DNA of 8,509 nucleotides from a virus (Duplodnaviria > Heunggongvirae > Uroviricota > Caudoviricetes): the IMG/VR virus record IMGVR_UViG_648276669_000009; one strand, written 5' to 3'. This document shows positions 1 to 6,861 of this stretch, in pieces (within the stretch, counting starts at the first letter, position 1; every line of letters starts with the position of its first letter). Under the pieces are notes generated by a model, which did no database searches, was not told where the DNA came from, and was given only the letters and a program-made list of their open reading frames with translations. A program made the translations under genes and the position numbers.

Positions 1-1053
1 ATGACGTTACCACTAAGAGATTACTATCCTATTGAGCGCGCGGCAAAGTTATTAGACTGCGATATTGATGATCTTATTCATTGGGCTGTGACAGGCTGCA
101 TTCGTATTTGTATAAAAATTGAATCTGCATATGGAGTATTAAATATCCCAGATGAAAAAGATGTGGTTAATTTCGATTGTCTGCGTAAGTTTATGGATTC
201 AGAACCATGTAAATCACGGTTATCTGACCTTGATGCCATTTCAGAAAGGGCGGCAGAACACCATGGTTTTAATTATATAAAAACCAAGTCGAGAATTATA
301 TTTGATTCAATGTGCGAATCTCTAAGCCATTCATATGTAGCGCCCAAATTTGGTGACATAGCAATTGATACTGCATTTGCTTTGTTAAATTATTATAACA
401 GGGGGTTATATTATGGGGAAAATTATCACATATATAGTGTATATCGAATAGCAACGGATGAAAGAGCTGTGGCAGTTGTACCACCAGTATTTAAAGGTAT
501 TCAAGAAAAATACCATAAGTATTTCGTTGAAATAGGCGGTATTTTCGCTTTGGGGGGAAGTTTTTTTGCCAACTATGATTTTAATAAGAAGTTTAAAGCC
601 AACCGAATAATTAATAGCAATATTATAATTGCTTCTGACGTTGATATACATATAGGAGTAATTGTTACTGAGGATGTTTCTTTTGATATTGGTGATTTAT
701 ATATCTTAAAGAATGATTTTTTAAAAATACAAAATGCTACAAACTCCAATAGCGAGTTAAGAAAAGATTATGTTAGTCCATTGGCAGATACTTTATATTT
801 GTGTGCGGGTAACAATATATTAAGTTCTGAGGATGGAGAGAAAGATATATGCACCAATAAAAACAATATAGAACGATTATCTAAAACAATGAAGGATTTT
901 TTTCGTGCGATGCTTGTTATTCATTATAAAGAACTCGAAAACAATCCGGTAAAACTTGCTGATATATTGACCGCGGAAGCAAGAGAGGCAGGACTCAATA
1001 TGCGCTTTGATAAAAGTACTATATCAAGATGGATTAAGGCATCATCTCAGTAA
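1..1053 (+). CDS. Hypothetical protein, AT-rich, HTH-like motifs at both termini; possible regulator or accessory (cargo) protein
   Basis: Uninterrupted 350-codon ORF starting with ATG at position 1, so the upstream RBS cannot be seen and the ORF may extend upstream. GC is about 35 percent by eye, against about 50 percent for the neighbouring genes. N-terminal segment PIERAAKLLDCDIDDLIHWAVTG resembles excisionase/AlpA/MerR-type HTH; C-terminal LADILTAEAREAGLNMRFDKSTISRWIK resembles a classic HTH. No catalytic motif recognised. Confidence 0.55.
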   Translation: MTLPLRDYYPIERAAKLLDCDIDDLIHWAVTGCIRICIKIESAYGVLNIPDEKDVVNFDCLRKFMDSEPCKSRLSDLDAISERAAEHHGFNYIKTKSRIIFDSMCESLSHSYVAPKFGDIAIDTAFALLNYYNRGLYYGENYHIYSVYRIATDERAVAVVPPVFKGIQEKYHKYFVEIGGIFALGGSFFANYDFNKKFKANRIINSNIIIASDVDIHIGVIVTEDVSFDIGDLYILKNDFLKIQNATNSNSELRKDYVSPLADTLYLCAGNNILSSEDGEKDICTNKNNIERLSKTMKDFFRAMLVIHYKELENNPVKLADILTAEAREAGLNMRFDKSTISRWIKASSQ

Positions 1054-1148
1054 GACCAGCAAGCATCTTAATAAGACCTTTAATACTTGCTTTCAAAACT
1101 CCGTAAAACAAAAATCTCCCCCGAAAGTTTAGAAACATAGGGGGAAAT

Positions 1149-1469
1149 ATGACTCAATCCGCATTCATTCCACCAACTCCAGAACAGCGCCGCACCATAC
1201 TCGCCGAGTATGGTTTTGACTGCGAAGAACGCATCAGGGAAGAGAAGTGTAAAAAGATGACCACGCTTTCACGCTCCCGGCGCTGGGAACTGGAGAAGAT
1301 CGGTGCTTTTCCTCCCCGTCACTCTTTGGGGCGTTGCTCATGTACCTGGCTGTTAAGTGATGTTTTATGGTGGCTGCGTAATCCGCCAGTTATTGCCAAA
1401 GTGAATAACCCATACGAAAACGCCAAAAAGAAAAGGGAGAGGGAATCCGGTAGCGCCAGAGTTGAATAA
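1149..1469 (+). CDS. AlpA/Vis-family phage transcriptional regulator (excisionase-like winged HTH)
   Basis: 106-aa ORF with RBS GGGGGA about 7 nt upstream of the ATG. The segment TTLSRSRRWELEKIGAFPP...TWLLSDVLWWL matches the AlpA-type pattern of a helix followed by a conserved Trp-containing wing. Position upstream of an icd-like gene and primase is as in P4-like elements. An internal Met (MTTLS...) could be the true start. Confidence 0.65.
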   Translation: MTQSAFIPPTPEQRRTILAEYGFDCEERIREEKCKKMTTLSRSRRWELEKIGAFPPRHSLGRCSCTWLLSDVLWWLRNPPVIAKVNNPYENAKKKRERESGSARVE

Positions 1470-1599: not shown

Positions 1600-2015
1600 C
1601 AACCAGTCAAGGATGTGCATTTAGTGCACCTGAAACCAACAATAAGAAACAATAGGCAGGAATGATTATGGCTTTTTTACTCTTTAAAATCAATCACTCA
1701 GCGAAAGTGAGCAAAAATAATTTGCAATATTGCTTGACTCGCTTTTTTGTCATGGCGTATCGTTTGCCCGCACCTCATAAAGCGGGTGCCGGGTTTAGCA
1801 GCCTGAACAATCAAGCGGGTAGCCGCTATATTTCCGTAATGCGGTTTTTTTGTGCCCGTAATTCCACCCTACCCCGTATTATGGCGGGGCGTAATGGGGG
1901 AGCCTTTGCGCTCGCTGGTTCCTTGATTGCCAGTCTGCTAACCCTGTTACGTCCCGCCACCATGTTTAGCAGCGTGCTGGCGAGACTCCGTAAACTTAAT
2001 CAAGGAGCCGCCAAA

Positions 2016-3185: not shown

Positions 3186-5855
3186 ATGAAATCTGACATC
3201 AGAAAAGAGATTATTAACCGTCTTATCCGTGATTACAACTTCAAAGAAGAAAATAACTACCTCCGGTATGGTGTTTGTCCGCAATGTGGAAAGAAAGAGT
3301 TGTTTACCAGCCTTGAAAGGCCGTACATCGTACACTGCGGGCGTGAAAATAAATGCGGTGCAGACCTGCTGACCAAAGAACTTTACCCGGATGTGTTTTC
3401 ATCATGGTCAGATCGCTATATCAGCACGAAAGACGAGCCATATGCAGCGGCGGCAGCTTACCTTCAGGAGGCGCGCAATATTGCTGTGGAGCCGCTGAAG
3501 GGGGCATTTACTCAGGAGCGATACCAGGACAAGGAAAACGGCGAACAGGCCGCTACTGTGCGTTTTACGCTGGCTGACGGCGTGTGGTGGGAGCGCATCA
3601 TAGACCGACCGGAACGCTTCGCTCGCAAGGCGAATTTTTCCGGCAGCTACAAGGGGTTGTGGTGGGCTTATCCGGGAGCGGATTTAAGCAAGGCCAAAGA
3701 AATCTGGATTTGTGAGGGTATCTTTGATGCCATCAGCCTTAACCAGAATGGCATTGCGGCCGTTTCTGTCATGTCTGCCGTAAACTACCCGGATAAGGCG
3801 CTGGAAGAACTGGCGAAGCTGTGCGGTGATACCCCCCGTCCGGTTATCGTGTGGGCGCTGGATAACGGGCGTGCGGGTGAGCGTTACGCGAAAAAACATG
3901 CAGAACGCAGCGCCGAAGACGGCTGGAGAACGGCAGCGGCGTTACCGGGCGAAAACAACAATAAACGCGACTGGAATGATTTACACATCGCCGGAAAGCT
4001 GCGTGGCCATGATGTGAAAAGATACCGTTATTACGGTGATTTATTGTTGGCGAAATCTCCGAGAGATAAGGCACTAATAATGTTTTCCTTTCGTGAGCGA
4101 AAGGAATTTCATTTTCCCTTTGATAACCGTATTTTCTGGTTCAAGCTGGATATTGAGCGCCATATGAAGGCTGTTGAGCGTGTCATTAATGAGCGAAATG
4201 TTGACGAAGATGAAGCGCGCAAAATTGCACTCAAGGAATCCGGCGCTGTAAAAGAAATCGCAAACTGTAACCCAGTGCCGCTTTATTACATTCGAAACAA
4301 TGATACGGATGAAGCATGGTATTACTTCCGCATTACATTCCCGGATGGTGCTACGGTGAAAAACACCTTTACATCAGGGCAATTAACATCCGCATCTGAA
4401 TTTAAAAAACGTCTGTTGCACGTAGCAAAAGGCGGCATTTATACCGGAACGACTACGCAACTTGACGCATTAATAAAAAATGACCTTCCCGCAATAAAAG
4501 AGGTTATTGGTCAGGATTTTATCGGATACAACAAGGCCATTGGGGCATGGCTGTTTAATGATATTGCTGTTTACAAGGGTAAAACTTATGAAATCAATGA
4601 CGAAGATTATTTTGAAATTGATGGCATAAACGCAAAACCATTAAGCGAAAAACCCACATTACAGATTAACTACAAAAAACCGGATGAATTTACAACGTCA
4701 TGGGTGGAAGATCTCTGGCTGGCTTTTGGCGAAAAGGGAATTATTACCCTGGCTTTCTGGCTGGGTTCGCTGTTCAGTGAACAAATCCGGGATAAAGAAG
4801 AATCCTTCCCCTTCCTTGAAGTCACCGGGGAGCCCGGAACGGGTAAATCAACATTGATTGATTTTTGCTGGCGGCTGTGCGGTCGTGACAACTATGAAGG
4901 CGTAGATCCAACCAAAGGATCAGAGGCGGGCTGGAAGCGCACCTTTGGACAGGTCGCCGGATTACCTGTTGTTCTGATTGAAGCAGACCGGGGAGACAAT
5001 GCGCAAAAAAGAGGTGCGTTTGACTTCGATAACCTGAAAAGCCTCTATAACGGTGGCGGTATCGGTGTTCGTGGGGTTAAGGCCAACAATAACAACACCT
5101 ATGACCCGGATTTTAAGGGCGCTATCGTGATTGCGCAGAATGCGCGGGTAAATGCCTCGCCGGCAATTATTGAGCGCCTGATACGCATATACACCGATAA
5201 AAAACGCCATTCACCTGATACCCGACTGGCGGCGAGACGGCTGGAACTCTACCCCGTCGAGAAGGTATCGGGGTTTATTCACCGGGCGGTAAGTCAGGAA
5301 CGGGCGATTATGCAAACGTTCCTGGAAGTATCGCCCTCTGAAACGGAACGCCTTTGCGGATGCGAAAATATTCGCCATCCCCGTATTGCCAAAAATCACG
5401 CGCAACTTATCGCGCTGGTCAGGGCGCTGAAATGCGTTATCGATATCCCGGATGAATGGCTTGATGCCACATGTCTGGAACTGGAACAAATGGCAACGGC
5501 GCAGGTTAAAGCGGCGGCGGCTGACTTGCCAGAAGTGATGGAGTTCTGGGAGGCGTTCGACTTCCTGGACGGCATAACAAAATACGGTGTAAACCATTAC
5601 GGCAAGGGATGCCGCGAAGGGATTGCTATCAGTATTCCGCAACTGGCACAGGCTGCCGCCATTCACCGCGTGGAGATCCGAACCGATCGCGAAATGATTG
5701 AGTTGCTCGGAGCCGGACGTTCCCGACCTTTGACAGGCCGCAAAACCATTCGTAGTGAGGTGTCCAGACAGGCAAACGCCGGAAAAGGAGTAGCCGAAGC
5801 CAGAGAACCAGAAGTACTGAAATGCAGGATATTCAGTTACAAGGAGGGGGCTTAA
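3186..5855 (+). CDS. Replicative primase-helicase, P4 alpha-like (zinc ribbon + TOPRIM primase + D5/SF3-type P-loop NTPase)
   Basis: 889-aa ORF. N-terminal Cys4 zinc ribbon (CPQCGKK...HCGRENKCG), TOPRIM-like motifs (ICEGIFDAISL; LDNGRAGERY) and Walker A GEPGTGKST. ATG 3186 with SD GGTGGAG upstream is preferred over the GTG at 3162 used by the ORF track. The stop overlaps the integrase RBS. Confidence 0.85.
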   Translation: MKSDIRKEIINRLIRDYNFKEENNYLRYGVCPQCGKKELFTSLERPYIVHCGRENKCGADLLTKELYPDVFSSWSDRYISTKDEPYAAAAAYLQEARNIAVEPLKGAFTQERYQDKENGEQAATVRFTLADGVWWERIIDRPERFARKANFSGSYKGLWWAYPGADLSKAKEIWICEGIFDAISLNQNGIAAVSVMSAVNYPDKALEELAKLCGDTPRPVIVWALDNGRAGERYAKKHAERSAEDGWRTAAALPGENNNKRDWNDLHIAGKLRGHDVKRYRYYGDLLLAKSPRDKALIMFSFRERKEFHFPFDNRIFWFKLDIERHMKAVERVINERNVDEDEARKIALKESGAVKEIANCNPVPLYYIRNNDTDEAWYYFRITFPDGATVKNTFTSGQLTSASEFKKRLLHVAKGGIYTGTTTQLDALIKNDLPAIKEVIGQDFIGYNKAIGAWLFNDIAVYKGKTYEINDEDYFEIDGINAKPLSEKPTLQINYKKPDEFTTSWVEDLWLAFGEKGIITLAFWLGSLFSEQIRDKEESFPFLEVTGEPGTGKSTLIDFCWRLCGRDNYEGVDPTKGSEAGWKRTFGQVAGLPVVLIEADRGDNAQKRGAFDFDNLKSLYNGGGIGVRGVKANNNNTYDPDFKGAIVIAQNARVNASPAIIERLIRIYTDKKRHSPDTRLAARRLELYPVEKVSGFIHRAVSQERAIMQTFLEVSPSETERLCGCENIRHPRIAKNHAQLIALVRALKCVIDIPDEWLDATCLELEQMATAQVKAAAADLPEVMEFWEAFDFLDGITKYGVNHYGKGCREGIAISIPQLAQAAAIHRVEIRTDREMIELLGAGRSRPLTGRKTIRSEVSRQANAGKGVAEAREPEVLKCRIFSYKEGA

Positions 5856-5857
5856 AC

Positions 5858-6861
5858 ATGTCGATCAGAAAACTGGATGATGGGCGATGGTTGCTCGATA
5901 TCAGGCCATGCGGACGTAAAGGAAAGCGCGTCAGAAGAATATTTGACAGAAAATCGATAGCTGTAGCAACTGAACGGTACATCATAGCGAACGCCGAAAA
6001 ACGCGAGTTTATACAGGGCTACCGCGACCGGAGAACCCTCAGCGATTTACTGGAGTTGTGGTGGGTTTATCACGGTCAGCACAGGCGAAAGGCAGGCACA
6101 GATAAACAGCAGCTTGGCAAAATCATTAATGAGCTTGGAGCTGACATGTTTGCGGTAGAGCTCGACAAATTAAAAATCATTGCATGGCGATCGCAGAAAA
6201 TTGCGGAAGGGCTAAAGCCGTCCTCAGCAAACAGATATATGAACAGATTATCTGGGATGTTTACAGCCCTGAAAAAGATCGGTTTGTGGGATGCAGAACA
6301 TCCTGTTCACGGTATTCCTGTTCTTTACGTAAGGCAGCGGGAGATGGCCTTTTTATCAAAAAACGAGGTCACATTGTTGCTTGACAGACTGAATGGAGAT
6401 CAACGAAGGGTTGCGCTCTTATGTCTTTGCACCGGAGCTCGCTGGAGTGAAGCCAGCAGATTACACGGAGAGCAAATAGTTCATAACAGAATCACGTTTC
6501 TGGAAACCAAAAACGGTAGAAAAAGAACGGTGCCTGTGTCGCAGGAAATATGTGCTGCCGTAAAAACAAAAGAAACCGGGCGACTGTTTGATGTGAAGTA
6601 CAGAGAGTTTTGCCGGGCATTAAAAAAATAAAACCCGATTTACCGAGGGGGCAGGCTGCGCATGTATTGCGGCATACATTCGCCAGTCACTTTGTGATGA
6701 ACGGTGGCAACATTCTTGCGCTACAAAAAATCCTTGGGCATGCGACAATTCAGCAGACTATGGCATACGCACATTTTGCACCGGATTATCTGGCAGATGC
6801 CATGAGATTTAACCCGGTAGCCAACATAGTGATCACCGAAGAAAAAGAGCCAGCAGAGTAA
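5858..6861 (+). pseudogene. int: Tyrosine recombinase / integrase, phage P2 Int-like, interrupted by a -1 frameshift in an A7 run (reading frame switches at about 6622-6631)
   Basis: ATG 5858 with SD AAGGAGGGGG upstream. N-terminus MSIRKLDDGRWLLDIRPCGRKGKRVRRIF is colinear with P2 Int as I recall it. Box I TGARWSEASRL lies in the first frame; the HxxR motif (HVLRHTFASHF) and catalytic Tyr region (TMAYAHFAPDYL) lie in the -1 frame (6610..6861). The first frame ends at TAA 6629-6631. Joining the frames at the A-run gives ...RALKKIKPDLP..., with the same spacing as the P2 Int junction. Confidence 0.8.
6622..6631 (+). other. A_AAA_AAA slippery heptamer immediately followed by an in-frame TAA; site of the integrase frame change
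   Basis: Codons TTA AAA AAA TAA in the zero frame. A -1 shift reads ATA AAA CCC (I K P) and continues into the catalytic domain. Could be a 1-nt deletion from an ancestral A8, a homopolymer sequencing error, or programmed slippage. Confidence 0.6.

What the first reader, a model, noticed from the sequence alone, without database searches (positions are those of the whole stretch)
1..1053. Compositionally foreign 350-aa ORF with HTH-like motifs at both termini and an uncharacterised 250-aa central region
It sits at the position where P4-like elements vary (upstream of alpA/vis), is markedly more AT-rich than the conserved core, and carries no motif I can assign to a known enzyme or defence family. 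The two terminal HTH-like segments suggest a DNA-binding protein. It could be a master repressor or anti-repressor for the element (Stl-like logic) or a nucleic-acid-sensing accessory protein. This is the gene in the window most likely to represent something undescribed.
Basis: partly seen in the sequence, partly recalled or inferred. Interest (0 to 1): 0.65.

Follow-up and report, generated by a model that had tools for sequence, protein, structure and literature searches.

The report
Hypervariable integrase-linked satellite regulator gene
This unnamed 350-aa gene is not swappable cargo but a fixed, extremely variable part of the integrase–X–AlpA switch module of enterobacterial phage satellites, and it is a testable candidate for the unknown component that lets such satellites respond to their helper phage.

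Summary
The ORF (1..1053, 350 aa) is real, complete and AT-rich (33% GC). It matches no Pfam, PHROG, NCBIfam, PADLOC or PDB entry by sequence or fold, and every public copy is labelled "hypothetical".

It is not cargo. In every related element examined the order is int → X → alpA. All 43 E. coli genomes with this int/alpA pair have a homologue of similar length in the slot. These alleles are only 25–31% identical, while Int is 90–97% and AlpA 97–100% identical. They are old alleles reshuffled module by module (dS 1.2–1.3 in the centre against 0.06–0.10 in the flanks; dN/dS about 0.3).

The protein has three parts: a conserved, acidic, excisionase-like N-terminal module; a variable body with no fold match; and a basic C-terminal three-helix module.

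Downstream of the X stop codon lies a pair of allele-specific repeats 21 nt apart. Repeat 2 lies a fixed 79–88 nt from the alpA ATG. The repeats change with the X allele, not with AlpA.

The closest known thing is iolg/icg of Vibrio PICMI satellites. That gene sits in the same slot, overlaps int at ATGA, is hypervariable and is essential for helper-induced excision.

Best reading (inferred, confidence 0.42): a constitutively made adaptor or sensor that positively controls AlpA-dependent activation.

The parts
1..1053 (+). Gene X: 350-aa protein of an unnamed family. It is the int-contiguous gene of the int-X-alpA module; the integrase lies just upstream of the window.
   Evidence: ORF. The same CDS is annotated in 30 E. 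coli genomes. It starts 16 nt after the int stop. dN/dS is 0.26-0.35, so it is a real coding gene.
1..144 (+). N-terminal module (aa 1-48). This is the most conserved part of the family. It has an excisionase/MerR-like beta-alpha-alpha-beta-beta fold but is acidic, so it is a probable protein-docking module.
   Evidence: AF2 pLDDT 82-97 and topology. 83% and 80% consensus in the first two 10-residue blocks; charge -2 and pI about 5. Weak MerR/HTH_17 hits in 7 of 34 members. Local excisionase-like Foldseek hits.
145..750 (+). Variable body (aa 49-250): a helical sub-domain (49-135) followed by an alpha/beta sub-domain (136-250), with family motifs GFFxL..FF and DLFILKxDF. It has no known fold relative and is a candidate ligand or helper-protein sensing region.
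751..876 (+). Flexible linker (aa 251-292).
   Evidence: pLDDT <50 for residues 262-289. Length-variable and gap-rich in alignment A2.
877..1050 (+). C-terminal basic three-helix module (aa 293-350), ending in FDKSTISRWIK. It is the candidate DNA-binding module.
   Evidence: Helices 295-308, 316-329 and 338-349. Charge +3, pI 9.6; family median +2, pI 9.0. Invariant T and near-invariant W. No HTH family match.
1049..1057 (+). Repeat unit 1 (AGTAAGACC), overlapping the X stop codon.
   Evidence: Best 9-mer direct repeat in the region, spacing 21 nt. 9 of 300 shuffles reach this in the L001 copy.
1070..1078 (+). Repeat unit 2 (AATAAGACC), 21 nt after unit 1. It is embedded in the 11-bp palindrome TCTTAATAAGA (1066-1076).
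   Evidence: sequence. The related core CTTAATAAG recurs in alleles L024, L006 and L015.
1087..1115 (+). Putative weak alpA promoter: -35 TTGCTT (1087-1092), 17-nt spacer, -10 AAAAAT (1110-1115). This is an inference.
   Evidence: An AAAAAT-like hexamer just 5' of the anti-SD is conserved in the alleles read. The consensus scan did not call it.
1117..1145 (+). alpA leader hairpin pairing anti-SD UCCCCC (1117-1122) with the alpA Shine-Dalgarno GGGGGA (1140-1145).
   Evidence: MFE -12.1 kcal/mol, z = -3.5 in the L001 copy. The SD is paired in 12 of 13 loci with different complementary stems.
1149..1469 (+). alpA (106 aa), the downstream partner gene of the module.
   Evidence: Pfam Phage_AlpA E 3.3e-7 and phrog_2790 E 4.6e-30.

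Best explanation
X is the enterobacterial member of the 'int-overlapping / int-contiguous gene' class (iolg/icg) found in satellites that carry an integrase-AlpA switch.

Proposed mechanism:
1. X is made constitutively together with Int, through operon arrangement or translational coupling.
2. It acts as a three-part adaptor. The conserved acidic N-terminal module docks on a conserved partner (Int, AlpA or a host factor). The variable body recognises an allele-specific signal, most plausibly a helper-phage protein. The basic C-terminal three-helix module binds a pair of allele-specific repeats spaced two helical turns apart, immediately upstream of the alpA promoter.
3. The net effect is positive. 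X is needed for helper-dependent AlpA expression and/or for assembly of the Int-AlpA excision complex, and its allele sets which helper can switch the satellite on.

Shown here: synteny, allelic hypervariability with modular recombination, purifying selection, domain layout and charge, and the co-varying phased repeats fixed relative to alpA.

Inferred: DNA binding by the C-terminal module, the partner of the N-terminal module, helper sensing, and the positive sign of regulation. The sign is borrowed from the PICMI115 iolg deletion phenotype.
For: 1. Invariant int->X->alpA order holds across integration sites and replication modules: gcd|hpt, the ycaO/pflB region, fis, a plasmid and metagenome contigs; Toprim/DUF927 versus D5_N/DUF5906 primases.
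2. The slot is always filled. All 43 E. coli genomes with this int/alpA pair have a gene there, spanning 2085-2119 bp.
3. Pairwise identities Int / X / AlpA are, for example, 97/28/100 and 90/31/100.
4. Nucleotide identity collapses about 120 nt before the int stop and recovers about 25 nt before the alpA ATG. The alpA upstream region therefore travels with the X allele.
5. dN/dS is 0.26-0.35. Centre dS is 1.2-1.3 against 0.06-0.10 in the flanks, and the modules swap independently.
6. A direct repeat pair spaced 20-22 nt occurs in 11 of 12 loci, with about 8-9 unrelated unit sequences. Each has a 1-4% chance expectation. The pair is unique within an element.
7. Repeat 2 lies 79-88 nt from the alpA ATG in 11 loci, while spacer length varies from 95 to 126 nt (derived).
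8. AlpA is identical in L001, L021 and L022, yet their repeats differ.
9. L021 and L025 differ in helices 1-2 of the C-terminal module (pN 0.38) but keep the last helix DDTI[ST]NWLK and the same repeat GCTAAATTAGCC.
10. The C-terminal module is basic, while the N-terminal module and body are acidic.
11. Family members overlap the int stop by 4 nt in 11 of 14 fis-satellite loci.
12. In PICMI115, iolg occupies the same slot with an ATGA overlap. Its deletion abolishes helper-induced excision, packaging and transduction. int and iolg are constitutive, alpA is phage-induced, and iolg/icg genes fall into 13 families (PMC10803314).
13. The helper-sensing step upstream of alpA is explicitly unknown in Gram-negative satellites (PMC6092414, PMC10803314).
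Against: - There is no experimental datum for this family.
- Sequence homology to PICMI115 IOLG could not be tested, so the phenotype is transferred by position only.
- The C-terminal module has no detectable relationship to any HTH family.
- The C-terminal coding region and the spacer are physically adjacent, so their co-variation may be plain linkage.
- The putative alpA promoter is weak and was not called by the consensus scan.
- The repeat pair is found in only 3 of 14 fis-type loci, which have short spacers.
- Classical PICIs (EcCICFT073, EcCIMP1) use AlpA without any X, so X is not a general requirement for alpA induction.
- In PICMI115, alpA given in trans did not change satellite transcription, and the authors favour an excision-complex role for IOLG rather than a transcriptional one.
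Confidence: 0.42

Rival explanations
1. Pure excision-complex cofactor. X is an architectural or accessory recombination protein that acts with Int and AlpA at the att sites, as proposed for PICMI IOLG. It has no role in alpA transcription, and the phased repeats belong to something else.
For: - X is tightly or translationally coupled to int: a 4-nt overlap in 11 of 14 fis-type loci and in L017, and 3-27 nt gaps elsewhere.
- The N-terminal module has an excisionase-like fold.
- The PICMI authors propose that Int, IOLG and AlpA form the excision complex, and alpA in trans did not alter satellite transcription (PMC10803314).
- Int's C-terminal tail co-varies with the X allele.
Against: - All E. 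coli alleles use the same attB (gcd|hpt) and near-identical Int and AlpA, so a recombination cofactor has no obvious reason to diverge to 25% identity.
- The N-terminal module is acidic.
- The repeats sit about 2.4 kb from attL and are positioned relative to alpA, not to att.
- The motif occurs nowhere else in the element, including near the ends.
Confidence: 0.22
2. Stl-like master repressor. X binds the repeats and keeps alpA off until a helper-phage protein binds its variable body and releases it.
For: - The architecture has the same logic as SaPI Stl: a conserved DNA-binding end plus a hypervariable partner-binding part, co-expressed with int (PMC6092414 for Stl).
- Operator-like repeats co-vary with the allele, as in immunity regions.
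- Deep, long-lived alleles are typical of immunity or specificity loci.
Against: - The positional analogue iolg is required for induction; its deletion does not derepress (PMC10803314).
- In the three alleles read (L001, L021, L006) the repeats lie upstream of the putative -35 and overlap neither promoter hexamer (read).
- The element already has a C4 antisense-RNA/isrK/icd immunity module.
- There is no XRE/cI-type HTH.
- X and alpA are in tandem, not divergently transcribed.
Confidence: 0.15
3. Anti-phage, interference or superinfection-exclusion effector. The gene is kept next to int for constitutive expression and diversifies in an arms race with phages. The repeats and the alpA linkage are incidental.
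For: - The composition is AT-rich and looks foreign.
- Allelic diversity is extreme.
- Satellites often carry defence genes (PMC9122126, PMC13586616).
- One distant family member gives marginal hits to PADLOC candidate PDC-S05 (E 5e-4).
Against: - Neither the window protein nor the 32 closer relatives hit any PADLOC model at E<=0.01.
- No enzymatic or effector domain, such as a nuclease or TIR, is detected.
- A single homologous family always fills the slot, unlike true hotspots where unrelated systems alternate.
- It is not at the psu-int/cos hotspot.
- It is absent from 50,697 phage genomes.
- The conserved cis-architecture relative to alpA would remain unexplained.
Confidence: 0.12

Closest known systems
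iolg / icg (integrase-overlapping / integrase-contiguous gene) of PICMI satellites of Vibrionaceae (PMC10803314)
   Same: - Same slot, between int and alpA on the same strand.
- Family members show the same 4-nt ATGA overlap with int (11 of 14 fis-type loci and L017). The window copy is of the contiguous (icg) type, with a 16-nt gap.
- Function unknown and hypervariable: 13 families in PICMIs; 25-31% identity between E. coli alleles here.
- Co-expression with int is implied.
   Different: - The host element is a 12.5-kb P4-like satellite at gcd|hpt in E. coli, with its own P2-type capsid gene, ogr/delta and C4 RNA. It is not a ~6-kb fis-integrated Vibrio element with a virulent helper.
- Sequence homology to PICMI115 IOLG is untested.
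- The PICMI paper reports no domain architecture, no shared N-terminal module and no cis repeats for iolg.
- Essentiality for excision is shown only for PICMI115.
SaPI Stl / PICI Rpr master repressors (Gram-positive PICIs; described in PMC6092414)
   Same: - Modular logic: a DNA-binding end plus a highly divergent region that would confer helper specificity.
- Encoded next to and co-directionally with int.
- Alleles differ greatly between otherwise similar islands.
   Different: - Not homologous.
- No XRE/cI-type HTH.
- Tandem rather than divergent arrangement with the regulated gene.
- The likely sign of action is opposite.
- Here the proposed DNA-binding module is C-terminal.
AlpA / Vis / Xis / TorI excisionase-type and MerR-type winged helices (Pfam Phage_AlpA, HTH_17, MerR_1)
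   Same: The predicted beta-alpha-alpha-beta-beta topology of residues 8-48, sub-threshold profile hits, and low-rmsd local structural matches.
   Different: - No significant family match.
- The module is acidic, whereas these DNA binders are typically basic (my general knowledge, not tested here).
- It is fused to a ~300-aa body, whereas the excisionase-like proteins matched here are 67-81 aa and AlpA is 106 aa.
P4-like satellite defence hotspot between psu and int (PMC9122126; PMC13586616)
   Same: An AT-rich, variable locus in a P4-related satellite near the integrase.
   Different: - It lies on the other side of int, not adjacent to cos.
- It is occupied by one homologous family rather than alternating unrelated systems.
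- No known defence domains are present.
- The canonical hotspot position in this element (right end, next to att) holds mazEF.

Membership tests
iolg/icg class (PICMI, PMC10803314) | Gene located between int and alpA on the same strand | tested here: met
   Window plus L001 and all other contexts examined.
iolg/icg class (PICMI, PMC10803314) | Overlaps int (1, 4 or 13 nt, usually ATGA) or is contiguous to it | tested here: met
   The window allele is contiguous, with a 16-nt gap. Family members overlap by 4 nt in L017 and in 11 of 14 fis-type loci.
iolg/icg class (PICMI, PMC10803314) | Unknown function, split into many divergent families | tested here: met
   No family or fold match. All copies read are 'hypothetical'. 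Alleles are 25-31% identical.
iolg/icg class (PICMI, PMC10803314) | Required for helper-induced excision and transfer | not testable with these tools
   Needs a deletion mutant and an inducing helper phage.
iolg/icg class (PICMI, PMC10803314) | Sequence homology to PICMI115 IOLG or any of the 13 PICMI families | not testable with these tools
   No IOLG sequence is held in the paper or its supplements. All fis-type loci retrieved came from Enterobacterales, with Fis 95-100% identical to E. coli Fis.
iolg/icg class (PICMI, PMC10803314) | Host element is a PICMI (fis-integrated, about 6-7 kb, Vibrionaceae) | tested here: not met
   The element is about 12.5 kb, lies between gcd and hpt in E. coli, and has capsid, ogr/delta and mazEF genes.
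SaPI Stl / PICI Rpr repressors | XRE/cI-type HTH DNA-binding domain | tested here: not met
   No HTH_3-like hit in the window protein or in 32 + 59 relatives.
SaPI Stl / PICI Rpr repressors | Divergently transcribed from the excision/replication operon, with operators in the shared intergenic region | tested here: not met
   int, X and alpA are all on the same strand in tandem.
SaPI Stl / PICI Rpr repressors | Derepressed by binding a helper-phage protein; deletion gives constitutive induction | not testable with these tools
   The analogue iolg shows the opposite deletion phenotype in PICMI115 (PMC10803314).
Excisionase/AlpA/MerR winged-helix (Pfam HTH_17, MerR_1, Phage_AlpA) | Significant profile match | tested here: inconclusive
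   The window protein has no hit. Seven of 34 N-terminal modules give E 0.013-0.086, below the thresholds.
Excisionase/AlpA/MerR winged-helix (Pfam HTH_17, MerR_1, Phage_AlpA) | beta-alpha-alpha-beta-beta winged-helix topology | tested here: met
   AF2 model: E8-10, H11-17, H22-30, hairpin 36-48, with pLDDT 94-97 over residues 11-50. Local matches to excisionase, TorI and MerR-like proteins at 1.2-3.4 A, not significant by E-value.
Excisionase/AlpA/MerR winged-helix (Pfam HTH_17, MerR_1, Phage_AlpA) | Basic DNA-contacting surface | tested here: not met
   Net charge -2, pI 4.9; family median -2, pI 5.2. The second helix is D/E-rich (DDLIHWA).
P4-like defence-hotspot cargo (PMC9122126) | Located between psu and int next to cos, with unrelated systems alternating between elements | tested here: not met
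   The gene lies downstream of int and the element has no psu. The same homologous family is present in all 43 E. coli elements.
P4-like defence-hotspot cargo (PMC9122126) | Match to known or candidate defence protein models | tested here: not met
   PADLOC gives no hit for the window protein at E<=0.1 and none for the 32 relatives at E<=0.01. One distant member gives a marginal PDC-S05 hit.

The most novel reading that the evidence does not exclude
X is the specificity-determining helper-phage sensor of a large class of enterobacterial (and possibly Vibrio) satellites. Its variable body would bind a helper protein. Through the C-terminal module bound at the phased repeats, and the N-terminal module docked on Int or AlpA, it would switch on alpA and excision. 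That would make the iolg/icg genes one superfamily, and the missing link between helper infection and AlpA activation in Gram-negative satellites.
Probability: 0.3. Interest if true: 0.85.

Novelty: new variant of a known kind. Interest (0 to 1): 0.62.

Why it matters
How Gram-negative satellites (PICIs, PICMIs, P4-like elements) detect their helper phage and turn on AlpA is an explicitly open question (PMC6092414, PMC10803314).

This analysis does three things:
- It defines a protein family at the exact point where that decision is made.
- It shows that the family is a fixed yet hypervariable part of the int-alpA module in E. coli, Salmonella, Klebsiella, Providencia and Enterobacter elements.
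- It supplies concrete handles for experiments: three separable modules, natural domain-swap alleles, a co-varying pair of phased repeats upstream of alpA, and an SD-sequestering leader.

If X sets helper specificity, its alleles would predict which phages mobilise which satellites. Those satellites carry defence and virulence cargo. X alleles could also be exchanged to re-target engineered satellites.

If X is instead only an excision cofactor, its extreme diversity between elements with near-identical Int and AlpA and the same attB still needs explaining.

Tried and rejected
Searches that found nothing:
2. The species-representative genome scan returned only one near-identical locus.
3. The N-terminal module profile search of the 5.8-billion-sequence database retrieved too few candidates to reveal domain fusions.
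4. RNAalifold on the alpA leader gave a weak consensus because of register shifts. It was replaced by per-sequence folding.

Leads rejected:
5. yfjH of CP4-57 lies between intA and alpA in K-12. It is unrelated (hhalign probability 1%) and on the opposite strand.
6. EcCIMP1_002, the mis-annotated 'UvrB' between int and alpA of a characterised PICI, is a small ORF in a 428-bp gap and is not a homologue.
7. The repeats as an intrinsic terminator. Several alleles have non-palindromic direct repeats that cannot form a hairpin, and no terminator was called there.
8. The repeats as AlpA sites. AlpA is 100% identical in L001, L021 and L022, but the repeats differ.
9. The repeats as Int arm sites. They lie about 2.4 kb from attL and are fixed relative to alpA.
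10. Rapid positive selection as the source of variability. dN/dS is below 1 everywhere and dS is saturated in the centre, so these are old recombining alleles.

Unresolved:
11. The PDC-S05 lead. It is not present in the closer relatives or in 10 distant ones tested, and the member that gave the hit was not located.
Full report
THE OBSERVATION

The window opens with an ATG-initiated ORF at 1..1053 (+) encoding 350 aa. The region has 30-36% GC in sliding windows, against 43-55% for most of the rest of the window. It is followed by alpA (1149-1469; Pfam Phage_AlpA, phrog_2790), a toprim primase, a second tyrosine recombinase and an ogr/delta gene.

The ORF is complete. In E. coli strain 2-1 (99.8% identical over the query) the same 350-aa CDS is annotated 16 nt downstream of a 399-aa P4-type integrase. 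The whole element sits between gcd and hpt, with the gene order int, X, alpA, icd-like, small ORFs, toprim primase, second integrase, ogr/delta, a hypothetical gene, a P2-family major capsid gene and mazEF.

NO KNOWN RELATIVE

- The protein has no hit in Pfam, PHROGs, PADLOC or NCBIfam and none in the PDB by sequence.
- It has no tblastn hit in 50,697 phage genomes.
- A word-indexed search of 5.8 billion proteins found three clusters. With a profile it found seven.
- An exhaustive phmmer search of 1.84 billion representatives found 114, of which about 25 are full length. Many share only residues 1-50.
- Family profiles still hit nothing in Pfam or the PDB.
- All ~440 cluster members read, from E. 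coli, Shigella, Salmonella and Klebsiella, are called 'hypothetical protein'. Further branches come from Providencia and Enterobacter.

STRUCTURE

AlphaFold2 with a 32-sequence alignment gave mean pLDDT 84.6 and pTM 0.69. The model contains:
- a beta-alpha-alpha-beta-beta unit (residues 8-48);
- a helical region (52-134);
- an alpha/beta region (136-248);
- a disordered linker (262-289);
- a three-helix bundle (295-349).

Three weak lines of evidence support an excisionase/MerR-type winged helix at the N-terminus:
- the topology of the model;
- sub-threshold MerR_1/MerR/HTH_17 hits in 7 of 34 isolated N-terminal modules;
- low-rmsd local matches to excisionase, TorI and MerR-like viral proteins.

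However, this module is acidic across the family (median charge -2, pI 5.2), and so is the body. The C-terminal bundle is basic (median +2, pI 9.0). It ends in a helix with an invariant T and a near-invariant W (T-[VI]-x-[RN]-W-[LIM]-K). The C-terminal module matches no HTH family.

The C-terminal end is the more plausible DNA binder, and the N-terminal end looks like a docking module.

CORE GENE, NOT CARGO

Every context retrieved shows int -> X -> alpA on one strand:
- E. coli and Salmonella gcd|hpt elements;
- a Salmonella element near ycaO/pflB with a DUF927 primase;
- metagenome contigs, one with a D5_N/DUF5906 primase;
- a Klebsiella plasmid with a disrupted integrase upstream.

All 43 complete E. 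coli genomes that carry this int/alpA pair have a 'hypothetical protein' between them, and the span is almost constant at 2085-2119 bp. In 14 of them only the flanks are alignable.

Pairwise identities Int / X / AlpA include 97/28/100, 90/31/100 and 96/64/89. Nucleotide identity is 96-100% through most of int. It collapses about 120 nt before the int stop, stays near random through X and most of the X-alpA spacer, and returns to 95-100% about 25 nt before the alpA ATG. All alleles are 33-36% GC.

X is under purifying selection (dN/dS 0.26-0.35, against 0.09-0.20 for int and alpA). Between L001 and L020, synonymous divergence is 1.2-1.3 in the centre but 0.06-0.10 in the flanks. The variability is therefore old allelic lineages moved by recombination. 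The N-terminal module, the centre and the C-terminal module are exchanged separately.

What varies is the allele, not presence or absence.

A CO-VARYING CIS ELEMENT

At the X stop codon and the start of the spacer, 11 of 12 loci carry a direct repeat of a 9-12-mer spaced 20-22 nt (21 nt in 10 of them). About 8-9 unit sequences are unrelated to one another. Examples:
- AGTAAGACC / AATAAGACC in the window (1049-1057 and 1070-1078);
- GCTAAATTAGCC / GCTAATTTAGCC;
- GCTTAATAAGC / GCTTATTAAGC;
- GTATCAATAA / GTCTCAATAA.

Only 1-4% of shuffles per locus reach this. In a full element the motif occurs only at this spot.

Several units are self-palindromic. Others are plain direct repeats that cannot form a hairpin, and no terminator was called there.

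Repeat 2 lies 79-88 nt from the alpA ATG in 11 loci, although the spacer varies from 95 to 126 nt and repeat 1 starts anywhere from -9 to +19 relative to the X stop (derived). Reading the sequences, a conserved AAAAAT-like -10 with a weak -35 (TTGCTT, TTGAGC, TTGCCA) follows. In L001, L021 and L006 this places the repeat centres at about -50 and -71 relative to the predicted start. The promoter itself is my inference; the consensus scan did not call it.

AlpA is 100% identical in L001, L021 and L022 although their repeats differ, so AlpA is an unlikely reader of these sites. L021 and L025 differ in helices 1-2 of the C-terminal module (pN 0.38) yet keep the last helix and the same repeat.

Caveat: the C-terminal coding region and the spacer are adjacent, so linkage alone could produce this co-variation.

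THE ALPA LEADER

In 12 of 13 loci the minimum-free-energy fold pairs the alpA Shine-Dalgarno with an upstream anti-SD, using different complementary stems. In the window this is 1117-1122 with 1140-1145, at -12.1 kcal/mol and z = -3.5. The anti-SD sits between the -10 and the predicted start. Read-through int-X transcripts would therefore be translationally silent for alpA, while promoter-initiated transcripts would not. This is inference.

Controls are mixed. EcCIMP1 alpA lacks the hairpin, and CP4-57 alpA has a weak one.

COMPARISON WITH WHAT IS KNOWN

The canonical P4 defence hotspot lies between psu and int, next to cos (PMC9122126). Other populated regions in P4-like elements are int/psu and sid/alpA (PMC8628076).

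For Gram-negative PICIs the existence of a repressor is 'unclear'. [quoted passage not shown] The closest match is in Vibrio PICMI satellites:
- iolg overlaps int by ATGA and lies between int and alpA.
- Its deletion abolishes helper-induced excision, packaging and transduction of PICMI115.
- int and iolg are constitutive, and alpA is phage-induced.
- Across the 35 PICMI subfamilies, iolg or the contiguous icg fall into 13 families of unknown function.
- The authors ask how the helper activates the early regulon and how AlpA, Int 'and probably IOLG' interact (PMC10803314).

I scanned viral contigs with the fis att repeat given in that paper and applied HMMs of the X family. This found members in about 15 of 93 loci. 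Eleven of 14 overlap the int stop by 4 nt, and 13 of the 14 have an identifiable alpA 14-102 nt downstream. All fis-bearing loci retrieved were from Enterobacterales, judged by Fis identity. No IOLG sequence was available, so homology to the Vibrio genes remains untested.

MECHANISM

Best supported (confidence 0.42): X is a constitutively made, three-part adaptor that positively controls AlpA-dependent activation and excision, and its allele confers specificity.

The positive sign rests on four points:
- the PICMI115 iolg deletion phenotype;
- the upstream position of the repeats;
- the weak -35;
- a separate C4 antisense-RNA/isrK/icd immunity module in the element.

Rivals:
- a pure excision-complex cofactor (0.22);
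- an Stl-like repressor (0.15);
- a defence or interference effector (0.12).

None of these is excluded without experiments. X is not needed by classical PICIs such as EcCICFT073 and EcCIMP1, which lack it.

VERDICT

The ORF and its unusual composition are real. It belongs to an unnamed, structurally novel family. It is a syntenic, hypervariable core component of the int-X-alpA module rather than cargo.

It is best filed as an enterobacterial variant of the positional class iolg/icg. This analysis adds new features to that class: a shared N-terminal module, modular allelic mosaicism, and co-varying phased repeats upstream of alpA.

Interest is moderate to high, because it turns an open question (helper sensing by Gram-negative satellites) into specific experiments.

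Noticed in passing
window 1770-1964 (+): Rfam finds isrK (RF01394, 1770-1851, 52.1 bits) and a C4 antisense RNA (RF01695, 1877-1964, 74.7 bits) inside the ORF annotated as 'Icd-like' (1662-2189). The element therefore carries a P1/P4-type RNA immunity module just downstream of alpA.
   Followed up: partly
window 1117-1145 (+): The alpA leader forms a hairpin that pairs an anti-SD with the alpA Shine-Dalgarno. The pairing is kept in 12 of 13 related loci through different complementary stems. It is absent from EcCIMP1 alpA and weak in CP4-57 alpA. The anti-SD lies right after a conserved AAAAAT -10-like hexamer.
   Followed up: partly
window 5822-6861 (+), indel near 6614-6621: The second tyrosine recombinase (Int_N + Phage_integrase) is split into ORFs 5822-6631 and 6610-6861. 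The cause is a 1-nt deletion in an A-run (A8 to A7) relative to the intact 346-aa gene in the closely related locus L005. This could be a pseudogene, a slippage site or a sequencing error. This gene is also allelic between elements (about 50% identity).
   Followed up: partly
L001 12785-25299 (element in E. coli strain 2-1): The satellite lacks psu and sid but carries its own P2-family major capsid gene, preceded by a 236-aa hypothetical gene (a possible scaffold), plus ogr/delta and a mazEF pair at the right end next to hpt. Salmonella relatives place the capsid gene right after alpA. I found no paper describing P4-like satellites with a P2-type capsid gene.
   Followed up: no
L028 5962-6783 (K. 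pneumoniae record NZ_CP129740): A 273-aa relative that shares only the N-terminal module sits alone between a WbuC-like cupin gene and cynR, among housekeeping genes, with no integrase or alpA nearby. It may be an orphan or a domesticated copy.
   Followed up: no
distant family members (alignment A7): One of 59 distant relatives hits seven PADLOC 'PDC-S05' candidate-defence models at E 5e-4 to 7e-3. The hit is absent from the 32 closer relatives and from 10 distant ones tested, and the member responsible was not identified.
   Followed up: partly
L001 13865-13984 and equivalents (3' end of int, just upstream of the window): The last ~120 nt of int, including Int's final ~12 residues, diverge together with the X allele, while the rest of int stays 96-100% identical. 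This could reflect the recombination breakpoint, an internal promoter for X, or an Int-tail/X contact.
   Followed up: no
family alignment A2, columns 401-479: Two alternative C-terminal modules occur on otherwise homologous bodies. Type A is ...NPxKLAxxLxxEA...FDKSTVSRWIK, as in the window. Type B is ...KWAExIHDHAHKFW.GECPL.... More distant members carry further variants that end in a similar T..W[LIM]K helix.
   Followed up: partly
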